64,000 nt of DNA from NCBI GenBank assembly GCA_942491415.1, contig CALOAD010000022.1:77010-141009 (forward strand). Direction: 5' to 3'. This document shows positions 20,249 to 59,459 of this stretch, piece after piece. Below the pieces are notes generated by a model, which was given only the letters and a program-made list of their open reading frames with translations, was not told the DNA's origin and searched no databases. Source of the DNA: Candidatus Gastranaerophilales bacterium (GTDB lineage: Bacteria > Cyanobacteriota > Vampirovibrionia > Gastranaerophilales > CALOAD01). Positions within the stretch are counted from its first letter, which is position 1. The number at the start of each line of letters is the position of its first letter. The translations under genes and the position numbers were made by a program.

Positions 20249-21028
20249 TTAATAGAATTTTGAATAATAAATAAAATAATCAGTGATTACGTTGTATAAA
20301 ATAGGCATTATTACAACTAGGATGACAGCGCCTAAAACAGGTTTAAAAAGGAAACTTAACTGGAATACGTTTACTTGAGGTGCTGTTTTCGAAATTATAC
20401 CAAGAATAATATCCTGTCCCAATGTTGCCAGTAACACAGGGGCTGCTATTTGAAGACCAACGTAAAGTACATTACTTGTTATTATTATAAGATAATCCAT
20501 ACTTATTATTTTATCTAATGGTAGTTGGGTATTATAGATGGGAAATATTTCAAAAGAGCGTTGGAAAGCTTCGAATAAATAATAAACACCGCCTATGTTA
20601 AAGAAAATGATAAGTCCAAAAAGCCCGATAAGTTTACCCATCACTGAGCTTTGACTTTTTGTACTTTGGTCGAACATAACAGCAGAGGATAAACCCATTT
20701 GCATGTTTATCATATCTCCTGCGGCTGTTATTGTTGCGAAGATAGTTTGACCAATGTATCCAATAATGAACCCAAAAATTATGTTTAAAAATATTGATAA
20801 AATAAAATCGCCATCAGCCGGAGGTGATTTTACGTCCATTATCCCAACAAAAGCAACTGTCATAAGAAGAGAAAAGCTTACTCTTATGAGAGTAGGGACT
20901 TCTTTTCGGTGAAGAATAGGAGCAAATTTTGCAAAGCCTGAAAATCTTGCAAAAACAAGTATGCCGGCACTTAGTCCTGCATTTACTTCCGGGAATTGTT
21001 TGAAAAGCTCCAATACATGTTCAATCAC
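20249..21028 (-). CDS. fliR: Flagellar/T3SS export gate protein FliR
   Basis: 259-aa polytopic protein, last in the fliOPQ-x-R order. GTGA overlap with the upstream ORF. Confidence 0.8.
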   Translation of the reverse strand: MIEHVLELFKQFPEVNAGLSAGILVFARFSGFAKFAPILHRKEVPTLIRVSFSLLMTVAFVGIMDVKSPPADGDFILSIFLNIIFGFIIGYIGQTIFATITAAGDMINMQMGLSSAVMFDQSTKSQSSVMGKLIGLFGLIIFFNIGGVYYLFEAFQRSFEIFPIYNTQLPLDKIISMDYLIIITSNVLYVGLQIAAPVLLATLGQDIILGIISKTAPQVNVFQLSFLFKPVLGAVILVVIMPILYNVITDYFIYYSKFY

Positions 21029-21525
21029 TGTTTTCTAACTCCGATGGGCATTGGCGGTTTATCAATTTCAAAGTTCAAAACATTTTTATTTTTAGGAATA
21101 ACCGGCATATCAAGGTTTAAACCACCTGTTGATTTTAATAATTCGGGATCGTCCTCGGTTTTTTTTATGTAGATTATTTTGTCTTTTTGACTGTTGGTAT
21201 TTTCTATGAGCAGATTAAAATTATAAAGACCGTTTTTTGTCCATATGATAAGGTTTGTGTCTTTAGATTCTTTGGGTTTTATTATCATTTGGTGTTTATC
21301 AGATGAAATACTTGTTAAAAGTTCTATATCAAGTGTTTGAGTATTACCCGTGCTGTATTTTTCTACTTTTTCATCAAAAATTAAGAGATAAACAAAACCT
21401 TTATCCATAAATAATTTTTGATCTAAATAAGCTTCAGCTTTTGCTTGTGATAAAAAGCAAAAAGCTGTTAGGGTAATTATTAAAGGCTTTTTAAACAAAA
21501 ATAAGTTCATAAAATTATTGTCCAT
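21025..21525 (-). CDS. Hypothetical secreted protein inserted between fliQ and fliR
   Basis: Signal peptide LIITLTAFCFLSQAKAEA. Overlaps fliQ (11 nt) and fliR (4 nt), implying translational coupling. Confidence 0.55.
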   Translation of the reverse strand: MDNNFMNLFLFKKPLIITLTAFCFLSQAKAEAYLDQKLFMDKGFVYLLIFDEKVEKYSTGNTQTLDIELLTSISSDKHQMIIKPKESKDTNLIIWTKNGLYNFNLLIENTNSQKDKIIYIKKTEDDPELLKSTGGLNLDMPVIPKNKNVLNFEIDKPPMPIGVRKQ

Positions 21526-22000
21526 TTATTTTTTGTTTTTCCATTAAATTAATAGTTGGTCTTGGAGTGTTATCTGCAGGTAATGTTTTTATTTTCTTAA
21601 CGGCTTTTGCAAAAGGAATTTTGCCCGGGTTTTGCATTAAAGCTTCAATACTAGGTGTTTTAACCTTACCAAAGTTTTTTGAAAAGCCTGCAACATCACG
21701 AGAACGAGCACCAGGTGGTAAAACATGGCTTTCTCGTCTTGGTATTATATTGAAAGCAAGGTTAGCAGATTCAAAAAAGTAGTTTTTAAGCATTCTGGTA
21801 AAAAGATTTCCCATAAGCATTATTACCAAAAATACCCCTACAATTTTTGGGGCTGCGGCAATTGTCTGTTCTTGAACTTGGGTTACCGCTTGCAAAATAC
21901 CAACAACAAGACCAATGCCCGCGGCTGTTAATACGCAAGGCATTGCTATCATTAGCATGCTCATAAATCCTCTACCTAAGTGTTCAAGAAATATTTCCAT
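21515..22000 (-). CDS. fliQ: FliQ with a ~70-aa basic C-terminal extension
   Basis: The first ~88 aa are FliQ-like (two TM helices, GILQAVTQVQEQTIAAAPKI). The extra tail is not expected in FliQ, which is typically ~89 aa. Confidence 0.8.
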   Translation of the reverse strand: MEIFLEHLGRGFMSMLMIAMPCVLTAAGIGLVVGILQAVTQVQEQTIAAAPKIVGVFLVIMLMGNLFTRMLKNYFFESANLAFNIIPRRESHVLPPGARSRDVAGFSKNFGKVKTPSIEALMQNPGKIPFAKAVKKIKTLPADNTPRPTINLMEKQKINGQ

Positions 22001-22014
22001 TTTATTTTTATCCT

Positions 22015-22656
22015 TTAATTAAAGCTTTTTACCAAGCCGTTTACGATGAGACTCCAGCCGTCAACTGCAATGAATATAAGTAATTTAAACGGTAAAGAAA
22101 TAATTGTGGGCGATAACATAAACATACCTAGAGCTAAAAGTATATTCGCAACCACCAAATCCAGCACAATGAAAGGTATGAAGATAACAAATCCTATTTC
22201 AAAGGCTGATTTTAATTCACTAACAATATATGCAGGCGCAACTTCAAAAAGAGTAAGATCCGCAGGGCTTTCAGGAGGAGTTTCTCTTGCTAATTCAACA
22301 AAAAATGCAACATCACTTTCTCTTGTTTGTCTTAGCATAAAATCTTTCAATGGTCTGCTGCCTTCTTGAAGGGCTAAAACCATTGAGCCGGATTCTTTGT
22401 AGGGTTTATGTCCGGCTTGATACATTTCCGAAAAAATCGGAGACATTGTGTACATTGTCAAAATTATTGCGAGCCCGATGATAACCATGCCGGGAGGTAC
22501 TTGTTGGGTTCCCATTGCAGTTTTTAAAATGGAAAAAACAATGACATATCTCAAAAAACTTGTCATGCAGGTAAATACAAACGGCAAAAATGAAAATACC
22601 GCCATTACCATTAATAGCTGTAATACAGGGTTTAAGTCTTGTAAAAGTGAATCCAT
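22015..22656 (-). CDS. fliP: Flagellar/T3SS export gate protein FliP
   Basis: SFLRYVIVFSILKTAMGTQQVPP...AFEIGFVIFIPFIVLDLVVANILLALGM. Confidence 0.9.
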   Translation of the reverse strand: MDSLLQDLNPVLQLLMVMAVFSFLPFVFTCMTSFLRYVIVFSILKTAMGTQQVPPGMVIIGLAIILTMYTMSPIFSEMYQAGHKPYKESGSMVLALQEGSRPLKDFMLRQTRESDVAFFVELARETPPESPADLTLFEVAPAYIVSELKSAFEIGFVIFIPFIVLDLVVANILLALGMFMLSPTIISLPFKLLIFIAVDGWSLIVNGLVKSFN

Positions 22657-22715
22657 TTTTATTTTATCTTCCTTTAATAATTAATGACATAAATACTTAT
22701 GCTTTATTTGTGTTT

Positions 22716-23099
22716 TTATGTCCCCATTTTTTCCAGTATTCCACGCATCATAGCTGTTTTTTGTTCAACGTTTTTATTAATAGTTGTTTCTTTTGTCGCT
22801 ATATATGCAGGTTTTTCAATAGTTGCTTCCCTTGGTAAAATATCTGAATCTTCCAGTTTTGTTAAAAAGTTTGTTCTTTCAGCATCTGCTGAGATTAAAA
22901 ACTTTTCATTCCCTGCTTTAACAACGTGTAAAGTTTTGCGAGGGGCTAAATCCAAAGAAGTTTCTATGGATAAAAAACGATCTTTTTTTGATTTTAAATT
23001 GCCGGATGCAATACTTTTTTTAGTTACTACAAAAGCAAGGAATAAAAATCCTATAATCGCCATTGTATAAACAGTAAAACTTGCTATATATCCACTCAT
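22716..23099 (-). CDS. fliO: FliO-like protein
   Basis: Single N-terminal TM, then LSIETSLDLAPRKTLHVVKAGNEKFLISADAE. Located directly upstream of fliP. Confidence 0.6.
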   Translation of the reverse strand: MSGYIASFTVYTMAIIGFLFLAFVVTKKSIASGNLKSKKDRFLSIETSLDLAPRKTLHVVKAGNEKFLISADAERTNFLTKLEDSDILPREATIEKPAYIATKETTINKNVEQKTAMMRGILEKMGT

Positions 23100-23108
23100 A
23101 ACTTCACC

Positions 23109-24305
23109 TTAAATATCGTCATCCATTTCAAAATCACTATAATCAAAGTCATCATCAAGATCTTCATCGCCTTCGTCATCATCAAGATCCTTGTCAAGAT
23201 CATCTATATCTTCATCTTCCATTGGTTCTTCAATCTTTTCTTTCTCTTGAGGCGGTTCCTGTCTGTGAACTTTTGTGAGTCGTACACCGTATTTATCATC
23301 GATAATGACTAGCTCACCTTCTGCAACAGAACTATTTTCTACCTTTAATGTGATCTTGTTTTTGAAAACAGGTGCCAGATCAACAACAAGCCCTTCGCTT
23401 ATTTGTCTTAACTCACCCAGTGTAAGTTTGATTTTTTCAAATTCTGCACCGACTTCTACTTGAATGTTATCCCACATATCCGCTGTGGGAGTTATTTCTT
23501 CGCTCACTTGTATGTTGCCTCCCTCATTATTGTCTAAATTTACTACCAGACCGGGATCCGGATTTATATTTGCAATTATTTCAAAACTATTTTTTATTTT
23601 AATTTTATTTATATTACTTTTGTCCAACAGAATTATGTCATCAGGCTCAATTCCCTTTAGATCTTCTATAGCAACCTTTGTGGAGCCAACTTCTATATTT
23701 ACAGATATATTGCTATTTTCAAACTGTTCTAAAGGCATAATAATATCGGAAGCTTCAACTAATTCAGGCTTTTTGATTATCTTAGAGGGAATTGAGATTA
23801 TTATTCTTCCCATTTCATTTTCAATGTATGTGTTAAAAACGAAGTGCAATAATTCATTTTGCCAATCATCTGTTAGGCTTGCTTTTTCCAGTTTTTCTCG
23901 ACTTATGAAAATTTCTTGAATATCTGTTTTGATTTTTTCACCAAAAGCAGAAACCAGCATTCCTTCCAGGTTTGATATTTTATTTAATTTAAAGTTTTTA
24001 TCAGGTTTTTCGCCTAAAGAAAAATCTAAAAAGTTTTTTATTATAGAATCAGAGGTTCTTATGAAAATTGTAATATCTTGGAAAACCCTTAATTGCGTTA
24101 CAAAAAAATCATAACCTTTCCATAAAAAATCAGGTTTATTATTTATTCCAAATAAAGAAACTTCAGTTTCAATATTCCAAAAGCTGTTAATAGATTCTTG
24201 CAAGATAGGGGATAGGTTATTTTCATACCAAAAATATGAACGCGAAAAATCAGGACCTTTATCCTTTCGTTTTTTTGAAAATTTTGTTTGAGTTGCGGTT
24301 ACCAC
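23109..24305 (-). CDS. Flagellar switch FliN/FliY-like protein (SpoA domains) with a polyacidic tail
   Basis: C-terminal SpoA/FliN motif: IQVEVGAEFEKIKLTLGELRQISEGLVVDL...VAEGELVIIDDKYGVRLTKV. An earlier SpoA-like segment reads ISVNIEVGSTKVAIEDLKGIEPDDIILLD. The last ~45 aa are mostly D/E. Confidence 0.7.
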   Translation of the reverse strand: MVTATQTKFSKKRKDKGPDFSRSYFWYENNLSPILQESINSFWNIETEVSLFGINNKPDFLWKGYDFFVTQLRVFQDITIFIRTSDSIIKNFLDFSLGEKPDKNFKLNKISNLEGMLVSAFGEKIKTDIQEIFISREKLEKASLTDDWQNELLHFVFNTYIENEMGRIIISIPSKIIKKPELVEASDIIMPLEQFENSNISVNIEVGSTKVAIEDLKGIEPDDIILLDKSNINKIKIKNSFEIIANINPDPGLVVNLDNNEGGNIQVSEEITPTADMWDNIQVEVGAEFEKIKLTLGELRQISEGLVVDLAPVFKNKITLKVENSSVAEGELVIIDDKYGVRLTKVHRQEPPQEKEKIEEPMEDEDIDDLDKDLDDDEGDEDLDDDFDYSDFEMDDDI

Positions 24306-29131: not shown

Positions 29132-29560
29132 TTATTTCTTTTCAATATCAGAAAAACTTTGCAACAAAGGTGAACCTTGAGGTTTTGATTCTTTTACGGC
29201 ACCATTTTCCATGTCGAATTCACCTGTTGACATTTTTTTAACCGTTTTGCAGGCATGTGGTTGATTTTCAAATTGAAGACATTCTTCTTTAAAATCTTCT
29301 TTCAATTCTTCTGCTTTATCTTGCGACATACTTGCAAGTTTTTTGTTATATTCATCCGCAACTTTTACATCGCTTTTGGTAAATACTGCTAAATGAAAAT
29401 GAGGATGGCTATCACCTTCGTCTTGAAAATGACCGAGATCGACAAAACGGGTATCGTTTTTTCCTACACCTTCTTCAATAGCGGATTGTATTTTTTCTAA
29501 TTTTTGACAACCACAACTTTTTATAACATATTTACCCGCAAAAGAAATATTATTTACCAT
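29132..29560 (-). CDS. Hypothetical protein carrying the NN-x-SF-x-GK leader
   Basis: GGAAGGA RBS. N-terminus MVNNISFAGKYV. No known domain recognised. Confidence 0.55.
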   Translation of the reverse strand: MVNNISFAGKYVIKSCGCQKLEKIQSAIEEGVGKNDTRFVDLGHFQDEGDSHPHFHLAVFTKSDVKVADEYNKKLASMSQDKAEELKEDFKEECLQFENQPHACKTVKKMSTGEFDMENGAVKESKPQGSPLLQSFSDIEKK

Positions 29561-34891: not shown

Positions 34892-35645
34892 CTTTATCTC
34901 TATCAAAAACAGGTATAAAACCATTTACCTCGATTACAAACCCGGAACTTCCACTTCCTGCGGAGTTTCTGACACGAAACCCGATCATAATTTTTGAATA
35001 CCGTGAAAATGAGTATTGAAATCCGGGAATAAAAAATCCGTTACTATGGGTACCTGAAAACCAATCGGCAATTATAGAAAAATGATCTGTAACAGGGTGT
35101 TCTATTCCTGCTATAAAACTTAAAACTCTTCTTCCAAAAAGTTGTCTTGTTCCAAAACTTAATCCTGACGTAATTCTTGTATTATATACAGGTAAGCGAC
35201 CGCTCAGATGAGAATAGGTCCAATTACCTGTTCCCAGTCCTTTAAAATCAGTCAATATTTGAGATCCCAAAACCCATTTGAAATCTCGTTTAGGGTATAA
35301 ATCTTTTTTTATAGGCAAAAACGACTTAAACCCCCACCCCATTGTTATACGGTTTGCTTCTTCTATTCTGTTTTGGTATAAAGTTGCCTCAATATCGGTA
35401 TTATGCCCAATGCCAAGGTTGTTGTATTGAGTAAAAAGAAATATTTTGTGAGGATTCCACGAACGAAATTGGGCTTCACTTTCGGTATAATAAATTCCCT
35501 TCACCGTTACATCTGCTGAAGGGACGTTAAATATTGTTTGTTGTGCATTTGCATTTGAGGTTAAGTAAAAATATAAATAACAAACAATGAATAGTTTAAT
35601 ATTTTTTTTAAGCCATTTATTATTGAACATCCAGTTATAATACAT
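34860..35645 (-). CDS. Putative outer-membrane beta-barrel protein
   Basis: Signal peptide ...LTSNANAQ. Alternating hydrophobic pattern with Gly/aromatic-rich strands. Confidence 0.4.
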   Translation of the reverse strand: MYYNWMFNNKWLKKNIKLFIVCYLYFYLTSNANAQQTIFNVPSADVTVKGIYYTESEAQFRSWNPHKIFLFTQYNNLGIGHNTDIEATLYQNRIEEANRITMGWGFKSFLPIKKDLYPKRDFKWVLGSQILTDFKGLGTGNWTYSHLSGRLPVYNTRITSGLSFGTRQLFGRRVLSFIAGIEHPVTDHFSIIADWFSGTHSNGFFIPGFQYSFSRYSKIMIGFRVRNSAGSGSSGFVIEVNGFIPVFDRDKAIQRLEPRQY

Positions 35646-35765: not shown

Positions 35766-36410
35766 ATGAATCTTAGTTCAACAATAGCATTAACGAATAA
35801 TGATGTTTCTTTTAGCGGTGGTAAAACTGCCAAAAAGAAGAAAGTTTCTGCGCAAAAAAGAAAACGCGAAGAAAAACAGGCTAAGCTGCAAAAATTTGTT
35901 GAAAGAGAAAAGTCTTTAAATTCAGAAAAATCAAATGAAATAACACAAAGAATTTATGATTATACAGCAATGAGAACTTTAGCTCAGGATAAAAACCTTG
36001 CTATTCCTTGTGCTTATTCGGGAGATTATTTTGGTGTTTATGATAATGTTGAAATTCTTCCCACTTATGAACATGTAAAACCTTTTAGCACTGAAAAAAA
36101 TAATGATGTTGGAAATTTGCTTGTTGTAGAAGGAGAATATAATTCACTTCGAAAACATAAGCCTTTATCAGAATTTATTGATGAATTAAAAGCGGGCATA
36201 TCTAAACGTCCTGAAAATGGTAAAATAGTGCGTGTCCCCAAAACAGATGTATTGAAAAATGTAGTGGCTCAATTAAAAGCTTATAATAAAGTGGCTGAAG
36301 ACATTAAAAAATGGACGGTTGATGTGTCTAAAGTCGTTTATAAAGAATTAGATAAGCCTGAACATAAAGAAAAGTTTTTGAAATTAAATCCTTATTTGAA
36401 TAAAGACTAA
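35766..36410 (+). CDS. Leader-tagged Cas9-type HNH-like nuclease domain protein (paralogue 1, catalytic His present)
   Basis: IPCAYSGDYFG...YEHVKPFS...GNLLVVEGEYNSLRKHKPLSEF fits the C-x-Y-x-G...(D/E)H...N...N HNH_4 pattern. N-terminus MNLSSTIALTNNDVSFSGGKTAKKKK. Confidence 0.6.
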   Translation: MNLSSTIALTNNDVSFSGGKTAKKKKVSAQKRKREEKQAKLQKFVEREKSLNSEKSNEITQRIYDYTAMRTLAQDKNLAIPCAYSGDYFGVYDNVEILPTYEHVKPFSTEKNNDVGNLLVVEGEYNSLRKHKPLSEFIDELKAGISKRPENGKIVRVPKTDVLKNVVAQLKAYNKVAEDIKKWTVDVSKVVYKELDKPEHKEKFLKLNPYLNKD

Positions 36411-36435
36411 AAAACAGCGATTTCGCTGTTTTTTA
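36409..36435. terminator. Bidirectional terminator between convergent genes
   Basis: AAAAAACAGCGA-TT-TCGCTGTTTTTT. Confidence 0.6.
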
Positions 36436-36462
36436 GTCTTTATTATAGAAATTATAGAAGTT

Positions 36463-38268
36463 TTAAACTACTTCTTTTAGTTCTCTGGCTTTTTTGCCTT
36501 CTACTTTTTTATTAGTATCTAATTTTTCTAACATTACTCGTCTTGAAATATCGATATCCGGCATGTCGTTACCTTTTGATACTGTGTCGGGATCAACATT
36601 TTTAACCCACAGATCCACATAATCTTCTTTAATGAACTTTTTGGAGTTATCTAAAATCAAGTCGATAACCTCAGCCCTTGAAAGTTTACCGTTAGAGTCA
36701 ATACCGGCATTCTCAAGAATTTCCTTAAAATATCTTCGAGTTACATAAGATTTATTTGTAAGGGGTTGTTGTTCCTTTTCAGCATCTTCCAATGCTTCTT
36801 GATCCTCTACTTCCTTATTAATCAAAGATCCGTTTCTGAGAATTTCAACGTTTTTATCACCTATTTTATCTGCAATTTTTGCAATAACATTAGGTGTATC
36901 AGAATCTTTTTTTGTAGGTTCTGCTATGCAATAACCTACAGGATAATTACTTACGCCGACAATTTCTTGACGGTAAGATTTTTTAAAGCGTTTATCAGCG
37001 TTTACACCTCTATTATTAAGCTTTATGCCAATTCCATCGATATTTTCACCCCATTGGAATTTCAAAATATCTCTAACAGTAAGTGTTTTTCCGTTTTTCT
37101 TAGCTTCATTATTTAGATAATGCATACAATATTTAAGAACATCAACTGTAGCAACAACATCAGCAAACGCATCATGTGCACCGTCTACATTTTGACCAAA
37201 CAAGAATTTATATTGTTCTGAGAGTTGTTTTTTAGCGCCTATATAAGGGTGTATCCTTTGGATTAAAATGAAGGGGTCAATTACAGTACAAGATTTTTTA
37301 GGTTCCATACTTGTTTGTTTTTCTTCATTATAATCTTCAACCGCATTTTTTAAGATCGTCATGTCAAATTTACTGTTATACGCAACGACAACTTCATTTT
37401 TAAGATAATCATCCATAAAAGACTCAAGTAGTTCACCCATTTTAGGTTTACCTTTTACGTCTTCATCAAAAATCCTATGAACATTTGAAGCTCCTGCAGG
37501 AATTGGCATTTCAGGGTCTAAAATCTGATCTAGAGCTGAATCAGGGATTATTTGACCTTTAGCATCATACTTAACGGCACCTATTTGAACAATTTTATCT
37601 AAAGGTTTTTGCGCTCTCGGTTCCATCCCTGGTATTGTTGGTTTTTTCACTATATTTACACCTGTTGTTTCAGTATCAAATACAGTAAAAGCAAAATTTA
37701 TATCTCCTGTTTCGGGGTTTATAGCCGACTTATCAAGAAATGACAATTCACTTGAAGTGATTTTGCTCAATTCATTTAAATATCCCGCATACATTTTTTT
37801 AGATGAAGTAGCAGCTAAAGTTCTATATGTAGCAAGAGGCTCTGTTACATTTAAAGGGTTAAATCTTCTTGTCCAAGGAGTATCATTAGCTTCTGCCAAA
37901 GAAAGGGCGTGTAAAAATCCATACACTTCTTCATTAGATGCTTTTGTCCAGTCTAACTGTTCGTTTACAAGTTTTTCCCAGCCTATTTTATCTTTCCAAT
38001 CGATATAATCTGTGTATTCACCATTATCATCTTTTGAGTAAAGACCTTGTCCTTGGTAGTTTTTGCCTTTAATATTTTTTACGACATCTTCTACAATATC
38101 TTTTCCTGTAAAAGCAAGGGCGTAAGATTTTAATCCGGCTGCAGATTCTTTAGAAAAAGATTGAATCGAATTATTTGAACGGTTTAGTATTGTCGTTTTA
38201 AAATTATTGGCTGTTTTATTTAAAAATTTATTATTAATAGTTATATTGTGTGTGTTTATTTTGTTCAT
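36463..38268 (-). CDS. Leader-tagged DEDDh 3'-5' exonuclease domain protein (601 aa)
   Basis: ExoI VFDTETTG, ExoII VAYNSKFDMTIL and ExoIII GAHDAFADV. Flanked by ~190-aa N-terminal and ~200-aa C-terminal regions of unknown function. AAGGGA RBS. Confidence 0.75.
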   Translation of the reverse strand: MNKINTHNITINNKFLNKTANNFKTTILNRSNNSIQSFSKESAAGLKSYALAFTGKDIVEDVVKNIKGKNYQGQGLYSKDDNGEYTDYIDWKDKIGWEKLVNEQLDWTKASNEEVYGFLHALSLAEANDTPWTRRFNPLNVTEPLATYRTLAATSSKKMYAGYLNELSKITSSELSFLDKSAINPETGDINFAFTVFDTETTGVNIVKKPTIPGMEPRAQKPLDKIVQIGAVKYDAKGQIIPDSALDQILDPEMPIPAGASNVHRIFDEDVKGKPKMGELLESFMDDYLKNEVVVAYNSKFDMTILKNAVEDYNEEKQTSMEPKKSCTVIDPFILIQRIHPYIGAKKQLSEQYKFLFGQNVDGAHDAFADVVATVDVLKYCMHYLNNEAKKNGKTLTVRDILKFQWGENIDGIGIKLNNRGVNADKRFKKSYRQEIVGVSNYPVGYCIAEPTKKDSDTPNVIAKIADKIGDKNVEILRNGSLINKEVEDQEALEDAEKEQQPLTNKSYVTRRYFKEILENAGIDSNGKLSRAEVIDLILDNSKKFIKEDYVDLWVKNVDPDTVSKGNDMPDIDISRRVMLEKLDTNKKVEGKKARELKEVV

Positions 38269-38286
38269 TTCTACATTCCCTTGGCA

Positions 38287-40392
38287 TTAAAAATTAAATT
38301 TTGGCTCAACTGATTTTACAAAACTTTTTAGTTTTTGAAGACCGCCGGTGAAGGAAATTACTTCGCCCTCTGTTTTGCTATAATTCCAGTCTTTTGCGAA
38401 TTGCCTGACAAATGTTTGGGCAATTTTTTTATTTGAGAAAGCTAAAAGACATTCATTATTTCCCCTTTTAAACCTTTCTCTACGTCCCTCATGATATTTA
38501 ATAAGTTTATAGAATCCAAGCAAACGCTTTAAACTTTGAATGTTTTTCTTTGAGTTTTCCAGTTCTATAAATTGTGGTTTACCATCTTTTTTGACCATTG
38601 CTTTAAGTTTAATGTCTTCATTTTTATTGATATTTTTAAGGATTGCTTTTATCGATCTACTGCGGAATTTAATTTTATCTAAATCATAATTTTCCATATC
38701 TTTTGAGAATGCTGATTCAAGACCTATCATTTTTTCCAGCTTTGATGTAGCAGAAGCATATTCTAAAATATCTTCGGTTATAATTTCATTTGTGCGTTTA
38801 TAATCTGATCTTAATCCTTTTTCAACGTTTTGTTCAAGACCTACAGCACTCCAGTTAGCAGAACCGATAACAACTTCTTCATCATCAAAAACAGCCAGTT
38901 TTGTATGTAATCTTTGTCCGATAGATTCATTTACATTGAAAGTTCTAGCAGGAACGCCCGCACTTTCAAGAGCTTCAAAAGCTTTTCGACAATATGGAAA
39001 TTCTTCTATAATATCAGGTGATATTAATATTTGAACCTCAAAAGGTCTGCCTCCTTCTTTAGATTCGTTGACTCTTTCTATGATCATATTTGTTATTTCT
39101 TTGTGAGTTAACACGAATAAAGAAGCTTTTAAAGATTTGGCATCTTGTAGTCTTTCTTTAATATAAGTACTTATTTCACTACCTTTTTCATTTTCATTAG
39201 AAAGCTTAATTTCTCTAGGAGTGTTTGTTAATACTTTTATAGCAGGTTTTTCTGTTGGATTGACTTCAACCATATCAAGTCTACCTTCTTTAAAACGGTT
39301 CCTATCTTCAGGATTATTAAATAATTCACCTACCATTTGCATATATTCAATATTTTCAGGTTTAATTTTCTTTTTAGCGTTTGAATAGTTAACACGATCA
39401 GCTTCTGTTAAAGGACCTTCAATAAGCTTTGTAGCTCCGAGTCTTTGCCAAGCAAATTTCCAATCTTTGTTAAAAATATCATTAATTATATTATCTACTT
39501 CACTACTTTTGTAAGGTGTACCTTTTTTGTATTCTCTGGTTTCCAGAGCAACACAACAATCATGATTCGCACTGGAATGAGTTCCCCAGTTCATCCCGCC
39601 TACGATAGCTTTTTCTCCGTCAACCGCAAGCATTTTAACATGTTGAAGGTTAGCACCTTTTTGGTTTGCACGAGGGTAAGGGACAACATCAATGCCATTT
39701 TCTTTTAAATAACGAACCATTTTAATATTGTTATATTGTCTATATCTATCTTTTTCTTTAACCAACCCTTTTTTAATCAAATCAGAATCAACAAAGTCAT
39801 GAGTTCTTTCTTTTTCCCCAGCACCGTTAATTCCCCATTTATGAACATCTAAAATAACCTGAACTTTTAATTCAGGGTTAGCTTTTTTCTTCTCAATCAT
39901 TGTAGATAAAAGTTTTTGTTGTTGCTCCCAGCCCGGAACAACTTCAGCACCGTTTGAGGGCCAAATATCTCCGTCTACGTCAAGGTTTTGAAATTCAAAC
40001 ATTTCAACCTGAATAGATTTTTTAGCGTTTGAGACATATTCTAGGGTTTTATCAAAAATTTGTTCAGCATCTATTAGTGATGTTACTTTTGTTTTTCCTA
40101 CATTTGCAGTTACACTTTTCTCGGGAATAACTCCTTGAAGTGGTGCTAAATGTTTCATATACTGCAGTATATAGTCATTTACGCTCATTCCAAGTTTATT
40201 AGCGTAATTTACAAGCTTTGCTCCTAAATCTTGAGAAACCTCTACATTTACAGGTTTTTGACCCTGCTGAACAGGATGTAAGACTTTAGGCAATGATGCT
40301 TGGCAAGTTTCTTTTCTTTTTGATCCGAAGAATGCTATATTATTGTTCTTTTGAACTGAATTTTGCTGAAAGAAATTCAGATTTGAAATCAT
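38287..40392 (-). CDS. Leader-tagged phospholipase D superfamily protein with two HKD motifs (701 aa)
   Basis: HVKMLAVDGEKAIVGGMNW and HTKLAVFDDEEVVIGSANWS. N-terminus MISNLNFFQQNSVQKNNNIAFFGSKRKE. Confidence 0.8.
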   Translation of the reverse strand: MISNLNFFQQNSVQKNNNIAFFGSKRKETCQASLPKVLHPVQQGQKPVNVEVSQDLGAKLVNYANKLGMSVNDYILQYMKHLAPLQGVIPEKSVTANVGKTKVTSLIDAEQIFDKTLEYVSNAKKSIQVEMFEFQNLDVDGDIWPSNGAEVVPGWEQQQKLLSTMIEKKKANPELKVQVILDVHKWGINGAGEKERTHDFVDSDLIKKGLVKEKDRYRQYNNIKMVRYLKENGIDVVPYPRANQKGANLQHVKMLAVDGEKAIVGGMNWGTHSSANHDCCVALETREYKKGTPYKSSEVDNIINDIFNKDWKFAWQRLGATKLIEGPLTEADRVNYSNAKKKIKPENIEYMQMVGELFNNPEDRNRFKEGRLDMVEVNPTEKPAIKVLTNTPREIKLSNENEKGSEISTYIKERLQDAKSLKASLFVLTHKEITNMIIERVNESKEGGRPFEVQILISPDIIEEFPYCRKAFEALESAGVPARTFNVNESIGQRLHTKLAVFDDEEVVIGSANWSAVGLEQNVEKGLRSDYKRTNEIITEDILEYASATSKLEKMIGLESAFSKDMENYDLDKIKFRSRSIKAILKNINKNEDIKLKAMVKKDGKPQFIELENSKKNIQSLKRLLGFYKLIKYHEGRRERFKRGNNECLLAFSNKKIAQTFVRQFAKDWNYSKTEGEVISFTGGLQKLKSFVKSVEPKFNF

Positions 40393-56440: not shown

Positions 56441-57523
56441 CTATGCTGATTTTGCAGATTTTGAAACAGATGAAACTTCAATATCAGCTGCATTTATATA
56501 AGGATTAGCTTCTAGAAATTCTTTTTTATGCGCTCTATTGTTTAATTCTTTATACACTGTTTTAGAAACAGTCGGTATCCATTTTTGAATTCTTTCGGAT
56601 ATTTTATTAAAACCTTCTAATTGTTTATTTATATTATCTAAAAGGTTTGTTTTTGAAATACGGATTGTTTTATCGCCTTGTTTTATAACGCCCGTTTTAA
56701 GCTCATTTACAAACTCGGAAAAACTTTTGTTCTTTCTAAATTCACTATATTTTTTATCCACCAATACAGTATTTTCAGCAATATTTCCTTCTTGTGAATT
56801 AATAGAAATGGAGCTTACCTCGGACTTCATTTCTTCATTTTCAATCAACGTCTCGCCCGAACACGCACATGAAATAGCCGCTGTATTATCTTCAGCGATT
56901 GTTTTTAAAACTGTAAATTCAGGTTCGTTAGGATTTGTTTTTGTAGTTTGAGACTTCGTTTCATTCTTGTTTAAAACTTTTAATGCTCCTACTAAAAATT
57001 TATTTTTACTTAAAAACTCTGCTTTTTGAGTCGAATTCAACTCATTGTAGACATTTAAAGATATTTTTTTGATCACACCTTTTATTTTCTTGGCAACTTT
57101 ATCATAAGCAACTAACTGTTTGACCATATTTTTAACAGGATCAATACCCTGCTTCCTGCTTATTTGAATGTATTTAGAAAGAGATTTACTGCTTCTTTGT
57201 CCATTAGCATCGGTATCCACAACCAATAAATTATCAAGAGTATTTTCACCTCCCAGATTAAATGGTTTTAAATGTTCATAAGAAGGTTTAAATGTTCTGC
57301 CAAAAAGTTTACCAATGTAAGCACATGGAATTTTAGCACTTTTATCAAAAGCAATAGACCTTACAAATTTATCAGGATAATCTCTTTTTTTAGATACTTT
57401 AGGAGTATTTTTTGCATTGCTTAATTTAGCTAGTTTTCGCTCAGCTTTTTTCTTTTGCTCTCTAGCTTTTTTTTGTTCTATATTTTTATTTGATAAACTT
57501 GCAGTAAAATTAATTAAATTCAT
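56441..57523 (-). CDS. Leader-tagged HNH-like protein, fused two-module paralogue (module A active-looking, module B degenerate)
   Basis: The N-terminal half aligns with the 168-aa ORF at 58953-59459 (IPCAYIG...YEHLKPFNLGGENTLDNLLVV). The C-terminal half aligns with 58219-58896 (TIRISKTNLLDNINKQLEGFNKISERIQKWIPTVSKTVYKEL). Confidence 0.6.
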   Translation of the reverse strand: MNLINFTASLSNKNIEQKKAREQKKKAERKLAKLSNAKNTPKVSKKRDYPDKFVRSIAFDKSAKIPCAYIGKLFGRTFKPSYEHLKPFNLGGENTLDNLLVVDTDANGQRSSKSLSKYIQISRKQGIDPVKNMVKQLVAYDKVAKKIKGVIKKISLNVYNELNSTQKAEFLSKNKFLVGALKVLNKNETKSQTTKTNPNEPEFTVLKTIAEDNTAAISCACSGETLIENEEMKSEVSSISINSQEGNIAENTVLVDKKYSEFRKNKSFSEFVNELKTGVIKQGDKTIRISKTNLLDNINKQLEGFNKISERIQKWIPTVSKTVYKELNNRAHKKEFLEANPYINAADIEVSSVSKSAKSA

Positions 57524-58218: not shown

Positions 58219-58896
58219 TTACGCTATAAGCTCAACTTTTTTCTTAGAATTTGCAACATCAGCTGCTTTTAAATAAGGATTGGCTTCTAAGAATTCTTCT
58301 TTATGTGTTTTATCATTTAGCTCTCTATATACTGTTTTAGAAACAGTTGGAATCCATTTTTTGATTTTTTCAGCAATTTGATTAAAATCTTCTAATTGCT
58401 TATTTATATTATCTAAAAGATTTGTTTTTTGAACACGAATTGTTTCATCACCTTTTTTTACGATACCGTCTTTAAGCTCACTTACAAAAGTTGAAAGATC
58501 TTTATCTCCCCTTAAAGCAGCATGTCTTCTATTGGCTAATAAAAGATTATCAGCATCTTTTGTTCCACCCATATCAAAAGGTTTAATAGGAACATATATA
58601 GGTTTTTCAGCTCTAGCTCCGGAATAAGCACAAGCTACATTTGTTTTGCTATCTTCTGCAATTGTTCTAAAAACAGTATATGAAGTGTTTGCAGATTTTA
58701 CATTTTTATCTAATTCATTTATAAAAACTTGTTCAGAAGCAATTTTTTGGACTTGCTCTGCATTTTTTTGATTTTGAGAAGCTTTACCTGCTTTTGTAAA
58801 TTCTTTTCTTTTTTGACCTTGATTTACTTTATTCTTGCCTTTTCTTCCAAAAGAGCAAATATTATTTGAATATGTTGATATTGCTGATATGTTCAT
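58219..58896 (-). CDS. Leader-tagged HNH-like protein, module-B paralogue with the catalytic His replaced
   Basis: VACAYSG...IYVPIKPFDMGG...DNLLLANRRHAALRG, with Pro where the paralogues have the His of YEH. The start is set to the second ATG (MNISAISTYSNNICSFGRKGK). Confidence 0.6.
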   Translation of the reverse strand: MNISAISTYSNNICSFGRKGKNKVNQGQKRKEFTKAGKASQNQKNAEQVQKIASEQVFINELDKNVKSANTSYTVFRTIAEDSKTNVACAYSGARAEKPIYVPIKPFDMGGTKDADNLLLANRRHAALRGDKDLSTFVSELKDGIVKKGDETIRVQKTNLLDNINKQLEDFNQIAEKIKKWIPTVSKTVYRELNDKTHKEEFLEANPYLKAADVANSKKKVELIA

Positions 58897-58952
58897 TTTA
58901 TATTCCATCCAATTTTTGTACCGACATTAACAAGATTTTTTATTTTTGTCTT

Positions 58953-59459
58953 TTAACTACCGTTAACTACCTTATTAATATCTACATTCACAACATCTTG
59001 CTCTGATATAAATTTGTTTCCGTTCAGAAATTCAGTTTTTTGATTAGGATCTTTTAGTTCGTTGTATACATTTACAGACATTTTTTTAATCATATTTTTC
59101 ATTTTATCAGCCAGTTGATCATAAGCTATTAATTGCTTAACCATGCATTTAATAGGATCAATTTTGTTTTTTTGTCTTGTATTATTAACATAAAAAGAAA
59201 GCGGATCATTACTTCTGTTGCTATTTGCTTTAGATTCAACAACCAATAAGTTTTCTAATCCATTTACTCCACCTTGGCTAAAAGGTTTTATATGCTCATA
59301 AGAAGGGGTTAAACCCTTTGCAAAATCGCAACCTACATAAGCACAAGGAATGTGAGCACTTTGATCCCGAGCAACTTTTCTTACAAAAGTATCAGGATAA
59401 TTTCTTTTTCTTTTTCCAAAAGAGACTAAATTGTTTGAACTGACTGAATTTACTATCAT
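58953..59459 (-). CDS. Leader-tagged HNH-like protein, module-A paralogue
   Basis: MIVNSVSSNNLVSFGKRKRN...IPCAYVGCDF...YEHIKPFSQGGVNGLENLLVVESKANSNRSNDPLSFY. Confidence 0.6.
   Translation of the reverse strand: MIVNSVSSNNLVSFGKRKRNYPDTFVRKVARDQSAHIPCAYVGCDFAKGLTPSYEHIKPFSQGGVNGLENLLVVESKANSNRSNDPLSFYVNNTRQKNKIDPIKCMVKQLIAYDQLADKMKNMIKKMSVNVYNELKDPNQKTEFLNGNKFISEQDVVNVDINKVVNGS

What the first reader, a model, noticed from the sequence alone, without database searches (positions are those of the whole stretch)
35766..40392. HNH / PLD / DEDDh-exonuclease locus whose products share one N-terminal leader with other hydrolases: candidate export- or targeting-tagged nuclease/lipase arsenal
**The locus.** Three adjacent genes encode the following:
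- a Cas9-type-HNH-like protein (35766-36410, +)
- a two-HKD PLD-family protein (38287-40392, -)
- a DEDDh exonuclease-domain protein (36463-38268, -), which starts 18 nt after the PLD gene and is therefore probably co-transcribed with it

**The shared leader.** None has a Sec or lipoprotein signal. All three open with an Asn/Ser/Thr/Ile-rich stretch lacking acidic residues. It ends in NN-x(1-2)-[SA]-F-x(0-1)-G-[KR] and is usually followed by a Lys/Arg patch:
- HNH: MNLSSTIALTNNDVSFSGGKTAKKKK
- PLD: MISNLNFFQQNSVQKNNNIAFFGSKRKE
- exonuclease: ...ILNRSNNSIQSFSKES...ALAFTGKD

The same head is on other ORFs in this window:
- 58953-59459: MIVNSVSSNNLVSFGKRKRN
- 58219-58896: MNISAISTYSNNICSFGRKGKNK
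- 56441-57523: MNLINFTASLSNKNIEQKK (weaker)
- 29132-29560: MVNNISFAGK
- lipase 19221-20234: MLYSQNNLGNSKG (weak)

**Interpretation.** Unrelated catalytic domains sharing one short N-terminal peptide usually indicates a common export, targeting or packaging signal.
- T3SS route. The composition resembles type III secretion N-terminal signals. Flagellar T3SSs are known to export non-flagellar enzymes, for example the Yersinia enterocolitica phospholipase YplA and the Campylobacter Cia/Fed proteins. A flagellar export-gate operon lies in this window.
- Basic patches. They could be DNA-binding or NLS-like.
- Alternative. The locus could be an intracellular anti-phage nuclease module (PLD + exonuclease + HNH).

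I know of no described system with this leader.
Basis: partly seen in the sequence, partly recalled or inferred. Interest (0 to 1): 0.8.

Follow-up and report, generated by a model that had tools for sequence, protein, structure and literature searches.

The report
Shared N-terminal leader on Melainabacteria enzymes
Many unrelated enzymes of the non-photosynthetic cyanobacterial relatives (Melainabacteria/Vampirovibrionia), including the nuclease-type genes at this locus, begin with the same short, floppy, phenylalanine-anchored tag; the tag appears undescribed and looks like an address label, but the machine that reads it is unknown.

Summary

- **Organism.** The window comes from a Gastranaerophilales (Melainabacteria) genome.
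- **Domain calls.** The PLD (two HKD motifs) and DEDDh exonuclease calls are confirmed. The HNH call rests on weak evidence.
- **The shared head.**
  - It is not an AT-bias artefact.
  - Its core is Φ-[S/T/P]-F-x-[G/A/S], set in a disordered, Asn/Ser-rich, acid-poor N-terminal tail.
  - That core is the only conserved feature of otherwise hypervariable N-termini.
  - It is kept in about 120 PLD orthologues, 44 exonuclease orthologues and 22 neighbouring dGTPase-like genes.
  - GC-rich Vampirovibrionales PLD homologues keep it too.
- **Distribution.**
  - It is enriched at N-termini, but only modestly at the family level.
  - It also sits on glycogen-synthase, HAD, kinase-like, GNAT, CheR-like and single-pass membrane proteins.
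  - The genes that carry it cluster around the PLD locus, not around the type III secretion (T3SS) operon.
- **Corrections.**
  - Four of the listed ORFs are paralogues of one HNH family.
  - The lipase has no motif.
  - The conserved unit is PLD-exonuclease, sometimes fused. HNH is not part of it.
- **Mechanism (unproven).**
  - I favour a non-Sec targeting/export leader (about 0.35).
  - Docking to a cytoplasmic hub is almost as likely (0.3).
  - The flagellar-T3SS route and the defence-module reading are not supported.
- **Prior description.** I found no Pfam or NCBIfam model and no paper describing this leader.

The parts
38287..40392 (-). PLD-superfamily protein, 701 aa, two HKD motifs. 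Layout: disordered leader (aa 1-31), a two-helix segment at aa 54-78 that I read as possibly RHH-like (inference), a bilobed PLD core, and a C-terminal tail.
   Evidence: - Pfam PLDc_2 E=1.2e-25.
- Weak NCBIfam hits to NucT and DrmC.
- 169 homologues, named Gastranaerophilales or Melainabacteria where a source gives a name.
- AlphaFold model pLDDT 84.5, with residues 1-31 below 50.
- Foldseek gives only generic PLD matches: PLD1/2, PLD3/4, F13, PssA.
40312..40392 (-). PLD leader, aa 1-27: MISNLNFFQQNSVQKNNNIAFFGSKRK. The anchor is I19-A20-F21-F22-G23.
   Evidence: - F21 is invariant in 33 orthologues of 41-58% identity.
- The region is disordered in the model.
38341..38361 (-). C-terminal second copy of the motif in PLD: V678-ISFTGG-684, followed by ...EPKFNF.
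   Evidence: - It is conserved in the closest PLD subclade as IAFTGSK, VSFAGK, ISFAGG and IPFNGRK.
- It is not a general feature of other families.
36463..38268 (-). DnaQ-like DEDDh 3'-5' exonuclease-domain protein, 601 aa. It has unassigned N- and C-terminal domains and lies in an operon with PLD.
   Evidence: - RNase_T E=6.4e-17, aa 196-378.
- NCBIfam epsilon/PolC exonuclease families.
- It lies directly downstream of PLD in all 44 related loci that have enough sequence.
- It is fused to PLD in P0018.
38101..38268 (-). Exonuclease leader, aa 1-56. It holds two motif copies: SIQSF38SK and YALAF53TGK.
   Evidence: - Orthologues start MKI..., then have 30-60 hypervariable residues, then an invariant F-[KG]-G right before the conserved domain.
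- The motif is present in 38 of 45 orthologues.
35766..36410 (+). HNH-like protein, 214 aa. Layout: leader (aa 1-20, NNDVSF16SGGK), a Lys-rich helix, and a YEH.KPFS...NLLVV...N..R core.
   Evidence: - It is a paralogue of 58219, 58953 and 56441.
- The family is nearly unique to this genome: 28 hits among 1.84e9 representatives.
- It is not next to PLD in other genomes.
58953..59459 (-). HNH paralogue, 168 aa. Leader MIVNSVSSNNLVSFGKRKRN; catalytic YEH retained.
58219..58908 (-). HNH paralogue, probably starting at the ATG at 58896. Leader MNISAISTYSNNICSFGRKGK. The catalytic His is replaced (YVPIKPF).
56441..57523 (-). Two-domain HNH paralogue: an active-type domain followed by a degenerate one. 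The leader is weak (MNLINFTAS).
29132..29560 (-). 142-aa protein of unknown family that starts MVNNISFAGK.
   Evidence: - The sequence is shown.
- No family was found.
- Orthologues were not examined, so membership is tentative.
20249..24305 (-). Context only: an atypical T3SS gate operon. Genes: SctQ/FliN-like (398 aa), FliO-like, FliP (213 aa, no signal peptide), FliQ-like (161 aa), a small VirB9/CagX-like periplasmic protein, and FliR. No link to the leader was shown.

Best explanation
**What the locus is**
- It is the Gastranaerophilales version of a conserved two-gene operon: a PLD-superfamily enzyme plus a DnaQ-like 3'-5' exonuclease.
- In many relatives a dGTPase-like HD enzyme is read divergently next to it. 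In one Vampirovibrionaceae locus the gene after PLD is a DeoC-like aldolase with the same kind of head.
- I infer from this company that the module breaks down DNA and deoxynucleotides.
- An unrelated, fast-evolving HNH gene has landed beside it in this genome.

**What ties the genes together**
- They share a class-wide (Vampirovibrionia) N-terminal leader.
- It starts with an amphipathic extreme N-terminus, M-x-Φ-x-x-Φ-x-x-Φ.
- An acid-poor Asn/Ser/Thr-rich disordered spacer of 0-60 residues follows.
- It ends in a Phe anchor, Φ-[S/T/P]-F-x-[G/A/S], often followed by basic residues.

**Mechanism I commit to**
- The leader is an address tag.
- The unfolded tail presents the Phe anchor to a hydrophobic pocket of one shared, membrane-associated receptor.
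- That receptor hands the tagged proteins to a non-Sec translocation or sorting route.

**Shown**
- The tag exists and is conserved in orthologues.
- It is disordered (shown for PLD only).
- It is enriched at N-termini.
- In the one fusion seen there is a single leader per polypeptide.
- It sits on unrelated folds.
- The genes that carry it cluster.

**Inferred**
- That a single partner reads it.
- That the outcome is translocation rather than retention.
- The identity of the machine.
For: **Conservation against a hypervariable background**
- Seen in three unrelated syntenic families and in HNH relatives.

**Independent of base composition**
- GC-rich Vampirovibrionales keep it on PLD and on a DeoC-like aldolase; an S8 protease there has only a Phe-Gly stretch (DLFPFFG) in an acid-poor head.

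**N-terminal bias**
- The motif occurs in 40/451 family N-termini, against 24/451 C-termini and 20/451 mid-protein stretches.
- The scoring-matrix test gives p=0.003.

**Signal-like properties**
- It is disordered (pLDDT below 40), acid- and Leu-poor and Asn/Ser-rich.
- Positions 3, 6 and 9 are hydrophobic in 59-67% of curated leaders (background 33-44%); only position 3 clearly exceeds background.

**One tag per chain**
- The natural PLD-exonuclease fusion P0018 keeps PLD's leader and has lost the exonuclease's long leader.

**Unrelated cargo**
- Carriers include nucleases, a dNTPase, a GT5 synthase, HAD, kinase-like, GNAT and CheR-like proteins, and many orphan proteins.
- This mix resembles effector or secretome sets (comparison from my own knowledge).

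**Clustering**
- In L019, eight of nine consecutive called ORFs carry the leader (one via the minus-strand gene read in orthologous loci).
- Leader families number about 25/430 near PLD against about 5/357 near fliP, from a hand-curated count (p=0.0008).

**No other signal**
- None of the window's listed proteins has a Sec, Tat or lipoprotein signal.

**Possible routes exist**
- A second, signal-peptide-less FliPQR-type gate is present in these genomes.
- Vampirovibrio, a member of the class, is a predator proposed to deliver enzymes into prey (PMC4451040).
Against: - No machine was identified, and leader genes are not linked to the T3SS operon.
- PLD, the exonuclease and the dGTPase-like gene are core, syntenic and moderately conserved. 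This is unlike typical variable effectors.
- Several carriers are classic cytoplasmic enzymes: dGTPase, DeoC, glycogen synthase, a CheR-like methyltransferase.
- At least five families have the layout leader, linker, Gly/Ala-rich transmembrane segment. There the leader looks like a cytoplasmic tail.
- The PLD subclade and some HNH relatives carry extra copies at C-termini and between tandem domains.
- PLD homologues outside the class show no classical signal peptide that the leader could be replacing.
- There is no experimental or proteomic evidence of export.
Confidence: 0.35

Rival explanations
1. **Cytoplasmic hub-docking motif.** The Phe anchor is a short linear motif that plugs into a pocket of one abundant cytoplasmic or inner-membrane-face scaffold. 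It would work like the clamp-binding motif, the PIP box, the PilN peptide that binds PilM, or cargo-loading peptides. The tagged enzymes would be gathered at one site, and the membrane-anchored carriers would tether that site to the membrane.
For: - The motif lies in a disordered tail.
- Some leaders hold several copies.
- Some families have C-terminal and inter-domain copies.
- The layout leader, linker, transmembrane segment recurs.
- Carriers include cytoplasmic-type metabolic and DNA enzymes.
- The module is a core syntenic one.
Against: - The motif is N-terminus-specific in general; C-termini are not enriched.
- A docking motif does not need the conserved extreme N-terminal pattern or the acid depletion.
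- No hub was identified.
- The motif does not match QL[SD]LF, and Q is not conserved.
- Many carriers are not DNA enzymes.
Confidence: 0.3
2. **Processing site or degron.** The motif marks a site cut by a dedicated protease at or next to the Phe. The leader would then be a pro-peptide that keeps nucleases and other enzymes inactive, or cutting would expose an N-terminal Phe that acts as an N-degron for ClpS/ClpAP.
For: - In the exonuclease, GT5, HAD and short HNH proteins the motif sits right at the boundary of the folded domain.
- In the three-domain HNH protein P0125 it flanks each tandem domain.
- Small residues follow the Phe, as in the Prp site F'A(S/H)KK (PMC9405229).
- Basic residues follow the motif in the HNH proteins.
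Against: - L27 in these genomes starts MAHKKG with no extension, and no gene lies between rplU and rpmA. The Prp/L27 system itself is therefore absent.
- FlhB has no extension.
- No protease gene was found linked to the leader genes.
- In PLD and the dGTPase-like protein the motif lies 20-30 residues before the domain.
Confidence: 0.15
3. **First reader's specific route.** The leader is a flagellar type III secretion signal, and the tagged enzymes leave through the flagellar export gate.
For: - The composition and disorder are T3S-like.
- The layout is bipartite, with a hydrophobic N-terminus and a downstream Phe motif. This recalls FlgD's 2-SIAV-5 plus the gate-recognition motif FLTLL (PMC8983047).
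- Exonuclease orthologues read F-K-G-D-F, which fits FxxxΦ.
- These genomes hold two T3SS gates.
Against: - Most families do not fit FxxxΦ.
- The Phe lies 7-16 residues from Met1 in the HNH proteins, 29132 and others, below the required 19-30.
- There is no genomic linkage to the T3SS genes.
- The leader also sits on membrane-anchored proteins.
- No flagellar rod, hook or filament genes were available to compare.
Confidence: 0.12
4. **Defence module.** The locus is an intracellular anti-phage system made of PLD, the exonuclease and HNH, with or without the dGTPase-like enzyme. The heads would be incidental.
For: - PADLOC finds partial DrmC-like hits for PLD, a full-length dGTPase hit for the neighbour in relatives, and a Cas-associated DEDDh model for the exonuclease.
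- The HNH paralogues evolve fast.
Against: - PLD-exonuclease is present at a fixed position in essentially every related genome sampled. This is not the patchy distribution of defence islands.
- No DISARM or other partner genes were found.
- HNH is adjacent only here.
- The heads are clearly under selection.
Confidence: 0.08
5. **Chance or composition.** The shared head is a by-product of Asn/Ile/Lys/Phe/Ser-rich coding in an AT-rich genome.
For: - The five-residue pattern alone occurs in about 4-5% of arbitrary 60-residue stretches.
- Transfer of the PLD-trained matrix to other families is only moderate.
Against: - The Phe is invariant in orthologues within hypervariable tails.
- Genomes with 44-60% GC keep it.
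- It is enriched at N-termini over interior stretches and over shuffled sequences.
Confidence: 0.04

Closest known systems
Type III secretion N-terminal signals, including the bipartite signal of flagellar rod and hook subunits (hydrophobic residues 2-5 plus the gate-recognition motif FxxxΦ; PMC8983047)
   Same: - It is N-terminal and disordered.
- It is Ser/Thr/Asn/Ile-rich and poor in acidic residues and Leu.
- Small hydrophobic residues lie close to Met1.
- A second, Phe-containing element lies downstream.
- It sits on unrelated, otherwise cytoplasmic-type proteins.
   Different: - It has a conserved Φ-[S/T/P]-F-x-[G/A/S] core, which T3S signals lack and which is not FxxxΦ.
- The spacing is often under 19 residues.
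- There is no linkage to T3SS genes or chaperones.
- It also occurs on membrane-anchored proteins.
- Some families have C-terminal copies.
Hub-binding short linear motifs: the bacterial sliding-clamp motif QL[SD]LF / QxxΦxF, the PIP box, and the PilN N-terminal peptide (INLLP) that binds PilM (recalled from my own knowledge)
   Same: - It is a short terminal peptide in a disordered tail.
- A conserved aromatic residue acts as anchor.
- Many unrelated clients share it.
- Basic residues flank it.
- Several carriers are DNA enzymes, including a DnaQ-like exonuclease.
- Some carriers are bitopic membrane proteins with the peptide at the N-terminus.
   Different: - The consensus differs: there is no conserved Q, the residue before F is polar, and Gly or a small residue two positions after F is conserved.
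- Clients include a GT5 synthase, HAD, a kinase-like protein and a CheR-like protein.
- No hub was identified.
Prp-cleaved N-terminal extensions (L27, phage 80α capsid and scaffold; motif MLxx(D/N)LQ(F/L)F'A(S/H)KK; PMC9405229)
   Same: - It is a short N-terminal extension ending in Phe.
- A small residue and then basic residues follow the Phe.
- Unrelated proteins share it.
   Different: - L27 here has no extension.
- No prp gene lies between rplU and rpmA.
- Leaders run up to 70 residues.
- The upstream consensus differs.
N-terminal marker domains of polymorphic effectors (MIX, FIX, RIX of T6SS; packaging leaders of contractile injection systems) and double-glycine leaders of peptidase-containing ABC exporters (recalled from my own knowledge)
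   Same: - One N-terminal tag is shared by many different catalytic domains, among them nucleases and lipase/PLD types.
- The genes that carry it cluster.
   Different: - No T6SS, contractile-injection or C39-ABC transporter genes were seen in about 2 Mb of related DNA (regex check for C39 only).
- The motif does not end in GG/GA/GS in the right register.
- The leaders are not acidic.
Plastid transit peptides (FGLK-type motifs; the Phe-dependent import signal of glaucophyte, red-algal and complex plastids, 'ASAFAP'); recalled from my own knowledge
   Same: - It is N-terminal, Ser/Thr-rich, acid-poor and basic.
- It has a loosely conserved Phe-Gly or Phe-Ala element.
- It sits on diverse enzymes, including a starch synthase.
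- The lineage is the sister group of the plastid ancestor's lineage.
   Different: - No import organelle exists here.
- No homology was shown.
- The resemblance may be only compositional.

Membership tests
PLD superfamily (38287-40392) | Two HxK(x)4D (HKD) motifs in a bilobed fold | tested here: met
   - H251/K253/D258 and H496/K498/D503 are invariant or nearly invariant in 33 orthologues.
- Pfam PLDc_2 matches twice.
- The AlphaFold model matches PLD1/2, PLD3/4 and PssA at probability 1.0.
PLD-family nuclease (Nuc/NucT/PLD3-4 type) as opposed to a lipid enzyme | Nucleic-acid substrate | not testable with these tools
   Only indirect evidence is available:
- It is in an operon with, and once fused to, a DnaQ-like exonuclease.
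- There are partial NucT and DrmC hits.
- The RHH-like N-domain is my reading of two helices at aa 54-78.
DEDDh (DnaQ-like) exonuclease (36463-38268) | Exo I-III motifs with H-x4-D | tested here: met
   - RNase_T E=6.4e-17 over the whole model.
- The sequence shows FDTETTG, YNSKFD and GAHDAFADV.
HNH endonuclease (35766-36410 and paralogues) | ββα-metal core with a catalytic His and a downstream Asn | tested here: inconclusive
   - YEH.KPFS...NLLVV...N..R is present in 35766, 58953 and the N-domain of 56441.
- IscB HNH region E=6.6e-6 and HNH_4 E=0.004 for 58953.
- The profile reaches canonical HNH proteins at E=1e-6 to 1e-4.
- The PDB profile search found nothing.
- The AlphaFold model has pLDDT 57.
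T3SS N-terminal secretion signal | Lies in the first 20-30 residues, is disordered, amphipathic, Ser/Thr/Ile/Asn-rich and acid-poor | tested here: met
T3SS N-terminal secretion signal | Export depends on a T3SS; genes are often linked to the apparatus or to chaperones | tested here: not met
   - The linkage part was tested: about 5 of 357 families near fliP carry the leader, against about 25 of 430 near PLD.
- Dependence of export on the apparatus cannot be tested here.
Flagellar early-substrate bipartite signal (PMC8983047) | Gate-recognition motif FxxxΦ at least 19-30 residues after a small hydrophobic N-terminal signal | tested here: not met
   - Only the exonuclease family fits FxxxΦ (F-K-G-D-F).
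- PLD and HNH do not fit.
- The Phe is at residue 16 (35766), 14 (58953) and 7 (29132).
Prp / long-L27 processing system (PMC9405229) | L27 with a cleavable N-terminal extension, and prp between rplU and rpmA | tested here: not met
   - L27 starts MAHKKGMGSTRNGRDS.
- rplU and rpmA are 45 nt apart.
Double-glycine leader / peptidase-containing ABC exporter | G-[GAS] at positions -2/-1 with hydrophobic -4/-7/-12, an acidic amphipathic leader, and a C39-ABC transporter | tested here: not met
   - Only 35766 (VSFSGG) fits the register.
- The leaders are acid-poor.
- No C39 signature was found in the sampled DNA; this was a regex check only.
Sliding-clamp-binding motif | QL[SD]LF or QxxΦxF on replication and repair proteins; binds DnaN | tested here: inconclusive
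   - Φ-x-F is shared, and Q is enriched at position -4 in PLD only.
- Q is not conserved across families.
- Non-DNA carriers exist.
- Binding cannot be tested here.
Anti-phage defence system (DISARM DrmC, dGTPase) | Partner genes present and a patchy, island-like distribution | tested here: not met
   - The DrmC hits are partial and no DrmA/B was found.
- The operon is syntenic across about 50 genomes.
Sec, Tat or lipoprotein signal peptides | A hydrophobic h-region; RR motif or lipobox | tested here: not met
   No hydrophobic segment occurs in the first 75 residues of any listed protein.

The most novel reading that the evidence does not exclude
The leader is the export or translocation signal of an unrecognised protein-delivery route that is general to Vampirovibrionia. 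The route could run through the second, signal-peptide-less FliPQR-type gate that these genomes carry beside their canonical flagellar one. It would send a conserved set of nucleases, a dNTPase, kinase-like, transferase and orphan proteins out of the cell or into prey or host cells. That would imply that gut Gastranaerophilales share the predatory or epibiotic biology of Vampirovibrio. A still more speculative extension is that this Phe-anchored, Ser/Thr-rich, acid-poor leader is related to the Phe-dependent plastid transit peptide.
Probability: 0.15. Interest if true: 0.9.

Novelty: new variant of a known kind. Interest (0 to 1): 0.6.

Why it matters
- If one partner reads the tag, it defines a regulon-like set of proteins in an uncultured, human-gut-associated sister lineage of the cyanobacteria. 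My rough estimate is 1-5% of families in the sampled DNA.
- The tag would give a handle for finding either a new secretion or sorting route or a new intracellular organising hub.
- The motif is simple enough to be turned into a genome-wide predictor.
- The question can be tested with N-terminomics and secretomics on the one culturable relative, Vampirovibrio chlorellavorus.
- It also re-frames dozens of 'hypothetical proteins' in Melainabacteria genome bins as members of one functional class.

Tried and rejected
1. **AT-bias artefact.** Rejected. The Phe is invariant in orthologues, GC-rich relatives keep the motif, and it exceeds shuffled and interior controls.
2. **Prp/L27-type processing.** L27 is short and no prp gene is present. 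FlhB has no extension.
3. **Double-glycine leader with a C39 ABC exporter.** The register and composition do not fit, and no C39 signature was found in the sampled DNA.
4. **A curated model of the leader.** None exists in Pfam or NCBIfam.
5. **Literature.** Four of the six searches run, on Melainabacteria, Gastranaerophilales and Vampirovibrionia secretion, signals or effectors, found nothing relevant.
6. **Word-based homologue search with HNH 35766.** It found only the query itself. The full HMMER search of representatives found only 24 weak relatives.
7. **AlphaFold model of HNH from 5 paralogues.** pLDDT was 57, so the model was unusable. The PDB profile search found no hit.
8. **Foldseek on the PLD model.** It gave only generic PLD matches and could not separate a nuclease from a lipid enzyme.
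9. **Flagellar rod, hook and flagellin genes for N-terminus comparison.** None were present in about 2 Mb of fetched loci.
10. **Clamp clients, to learn the local clamp-binding motif.** Only MutL, LigA and a UvrD-like protein were found, which was uninformative.
11. **A general C-terminal role for the motif.** C-termini are not enriched.
12. **Proteome-wide leader survey with the large databases.** Judged infeasible. A motif worth 10-20 bits cannot reach significance against 1e9 proteins, and the word index would return only orthologues. The third homologue search was left unused.

Full report
**Source and gene calls**

The window has about 31% GC. The PLD protein has 169 homologues. Where a source names them, the names are Candidatus Gastranaerophilales, Melainabacteria or Cyanobacteriota. 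A scan of species-representative genomes gave 71 loci. Most are Gastranaerophilales, followed by Vampirovibrionales and a few more distant phyla.

- **PLD (38287-40392, minus strand).** It has two PLDc_2 domains and both HKD motifs.
- **Exonuclease (36463-38268, minus strand).** It has a complete RNase_T/DnaQ-type domain at aa 196-378.
- **Spacing.** The two genes are 18 nt apart, with a GGGAA before the ATG.
- **HNH (35766-36410, plus strand).** It has no Pfam hit. It belongs to a four-member paralogue family in this window, together with 58953, 58219 and the two-domain 56441.
  - The best member hits the IscB HNH region at E=6.6e-6.
  - A profile of the paralogues reaches canonical HNH proteins only weakly.
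  - 58219 and the second domain of 56441 have lost the catalytic His.

**What is conserved around the locus**
- The exonuclease gene follows PLD in all 44 related loci that have enough downstream sequence.
- One protein, P0018 (1203 aa), is a PLD-exonuclease fusion.
- In 22 loci a dGTPase-like HD enzyme is read divergently upstream of PLD. It gives a full-length PADLOC dGTPase match at E=1.7e-56.
- The window lacks this dGTPase-like gene and has RNase Y in that position.
- In a Vampirovibrionaceae locus the gene after PLD is a DeoC-family aldolase.
- The HNH family is almost unique to this genome, with 28 hits among 1.84e9 representatives. It is not next to PLD elsewhere.
- The stable unit is therefore PLD-exonuclease. 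It is too universal and too fixed in position to look like a defence island.
- The PLD model is confident (pLDDT 84.5), but Foldseek matches lipid PLDs, the PLD3/4 exonucleases and PssA about equally. 'Nuclease' is an inference from its gene partners.

**The shared head is real**
- In 33 PLD orthologues of 41-58% identity, F21 is the only invariant column before residue 99. The flanking residues read Φ-[S/P/T]-F-[G/A/K/T]-[G/A/S].
- Exonuclease orthologues start MKI..., run through 30-60 unalignable residues, and then all have F-[K/G]-G just before the conserved domain.
- The dGTPase-like proteins start M-L-L-P-V... and carry ...P-S-F-K-S about 40 residues in.
- A five-residue pattern finds the motif in these N-termini:

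| Family | Motif in N-terminus | Motif in control stretch |
|---|---|---|
| PLD (P0001-P0120) | 77 of 120 | 0 of 120 |
| Exonuclease | 38 of 45 | 2 of 45 |
| dGTPase-like | 13 of 22 | 0 of 22 |

  (All.)
- PLD homologues from Vampirovibrionales genomes with 44-60% GC keep PFFTGGRKK, AVLFGKR, PIIFGG and TLTFAAG. This rules out AT-driven composition.
- Distant HNH relatives also begin ..NNVSFGK, VINFTGY or ISFTGYR.
- The leader region of PLD is disordered in the model, with pLDDT 30-38 for residues 1-31.
- Twenty-seven curated leaders are twice as rich in Asn and Ser as other proteins and about three times poorer in Asp and Glu. Positions 3, 6 and 9 are hydrophobic in 59-67% of them against 33-44% in the background; only position 3 clearly exceeds it.

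**How specific and how widespread**

A scoring matrix trained only on PLD was tested on all other families in about 2 Mb of related DNA.
- It scored at least 10 bits in 12/699 family N-termini, against 4/1112 interior stretches (p=0.003).
- The looser pattern is found in 40/451 N-termini, 24/451 C-termini and 20/451 mid-protein stretches.
- Transfer of the PLD-trained matrix to the other families is moderate. It beats shuffled sequence at p≤0.05 in 36% of exonuclease N-termini, against 4% of interior stretches. The motif is short and each family has its own flavour.

The motif is therefore mainly an N-terminal feature. The exceptions are a conserved second copy near the C-terminus of the PLD subclade that includes the window (VISFTGG), and copies flanking each domain of the three-domain HNH protein P0125.

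Other carriers found:
- a GT5 starch/glycogen synthase;
- a HAD phosphatase whose DxDxT motif starts 6 residues after the leader;
- a kinase-like protein;
- a GNAT;
- a CheR-like methyltransferase;
- many orphan proteins;
- at least five families built as leader, polar linker, then a Gly/Ala-rich transmembrane segment.

Leader genes cluster.
- In L019, eight of nine consecutive called ORFs carry the leader; for one of them the leader gene is the minus-strand ORF read in the orthologous loci L014 and L017.
- About 25 of 430 families near PLD carry it, against about 5 of 357 near fliP. These are hand-curated counts (p=0.0008).
- The PLD-exonuclease fusion keeps only PLD's leader.

- The lipase (19221-20234) and the patatin gene (27126-28370) have no motif.
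- 56441 has only a weak motif.
- 29132 has the motif at residues 3-9, but I did not check its orthologues.
- The NN prefix and the G-[KR] suffix are clade-local.

**Testing the proposed routes**

*T3SS.*
- The T3SS genes in the window are SctQ/FliN-like, FliO, FliP, FliQ, a VirB9-like small protein and FliR.
- They form an isolated operon that is conserved in the 80 best-matching metagenome contigs kept (378 confirmed in all).
- This FliP lacks the flagellar signal peptide, and it scores about equally as FliP and as SctR.
- Four of those contigs also carry a canonical set 7-8 kb away: FliP with a signal peptide, an 89-aa FliQ and FliR; in L096 FlhB follows. These genomes therefore have two export gates.
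- That keeps a type III-like route conceivable. Against it, leader genes are not linked to the operon, the motif is not the FxxxΦ gate-recognition motif in most families, and the Phe is often only 7-16 residues from Met1. FlgD needs 19-30 residues (PMC8983047).

*Prp-type processing.*
- I considered this because the Prp site is ...F'A(S/H)KK (PMC9405229).
- L27 here starts MAHKKG and no gene separates rplU from rpmA.

*Double-glycine leader with an ABC exporter.* The register and composition do not fit.

*Prior description.* No curated family and no paper describes the leader.

**Interpretation**

The facts that need explaining are these:
- an N-terminal, disordered, acid-poor tag with a conserved Phe anchor;
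- one tag per polypeptide in the one fusion seen;
- carriage on unrelated and often orphan proteins;
- clustered genes;
- conservation across a whole class.

The commonest biological reason for this pattern is a targeting signal read by one machine. I commit to a non-Sec targeting/export leader, at only about 0.35.

Almost as likely (0.3) is a cytoplasmic docking motif for a shared hub. That reading better explains the leader-plus-transmembrane proteins, the cytoplasmic-type metabolic carriers and the extra C-terminal or inter-domain copies.

A processing-site or degron role (0.15) would explain why the motif so often sits exactly at a domain boundary.

None of these can be settled by sequence alone. 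The experiments and computations that would settle them are listed under next steps.

Noticed in passing
window 20249-24305; L096:17351-20391; L146:18070-19911; L144:17940-19800; L147:12603-14444: These genomes carry two paralogous T3SS export-gate sets. One is the window's isolated operon: SctQ-like 398 aa, FliO, FliP of 213 aa without a signal peptide, a double-length FliQ, and FliR. The other is canonical: FliP with a signal peptide, FliQ of 89 aa and FliR, followed by FlhB in L096. The window's FliP scores about equally as FliP and as SctR.
   Followed up: partly
L019:8463-20701 (also L014, L017, L021): This is an island of leader-bearing genes. In order: dGTPase-like, PLD, exonuclease, a single-pass membrane protein (read on the minus strand by analogy with L014 and L017), two large orphan paralogues, a HAD protein and a kinase-like protein. 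Eight of nine consecutive called ORFs carry the leader.
   Followed up: partly
L014:18293-20961; L019:20725-21669: Radical-SAM genes lie between or beside leader-bearing orphan paralogues. Those paralogues carry two Phe motifs (NLTGFG ... NISFAGH). The proteins might be post-translationally modified.
   Followed up: no
P0018 (1203 aa): This is a natural PLD-exonuclease fusion. It keeps PLD's leader. Of the exonuclease's leader, only 'VLQFKP' remains, just before the exonuclease N-domain.
   Followed up: partly
window 38287-38370 (PLD C-terminus) and orthologues: The extreme C-terminus of PLD is conserved in two alternative forms. One is ...EPxF[ND]KxV-COOH, preceded by a second Phe motif. The other is ...LD[LIV]xG-COOH. 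This suggests a separate C-terminal docking tail.
   Followed up: partly
window 58219-58908 and 56444-56968: Two HNH-family copies have lost the catalytic His (YVPIKPF; SEVSSISI). Each lies next to, or is fused to, an active-type copy. They could be active/inactive pairs.
   Followed up: partly
L014:13699-14655; L017:13766-14713; L013:11865-14303; L015:17829-18629; L121:12285-12707; L132:4175-4924: A layout recurs in several unrelated families: N-terminal leader, 40-60 polar and basic residues, then a single Gly/Ala-rich hydrophobic segment flanked by basic residues on both sides.
   Followed up: partly
window 24633-25886: A 417-aa low-complexity Ala/Lys/Glu/Gly-rich protein ends in a long GGS repeat. 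Its gene lies directly upstream of the SctQ-like gene. No family was found.
   Followed up: no
L148:13323-13988; L146:17261-17926: L27 of these genomes starts MAHKKG with no N-terminal extension. rplU and rpmA are adjacent with no prp gene between them.
   Followed up: yes
L055:4719-5603; L059:11963-13315: In GC-rich Vampirovibrionales, a DeoC-family aldolase next to PLD has a leader-like N-terminus (...GVSFSGSK). An S8 subtilase has only a Phe-Gly stretch (...DLFPFFGNP) in an acid-poor head.
   Followed up: partly
window 34175-34891 (+) and 34860-35645 (-): Two signal-peptide proteins lie just upstream of the HNH gene. One belongs to DUF2490, which I take to be an outer-membrane-type family. 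Their ORFs converge and overlap by 32 nt.
   Followed up: no
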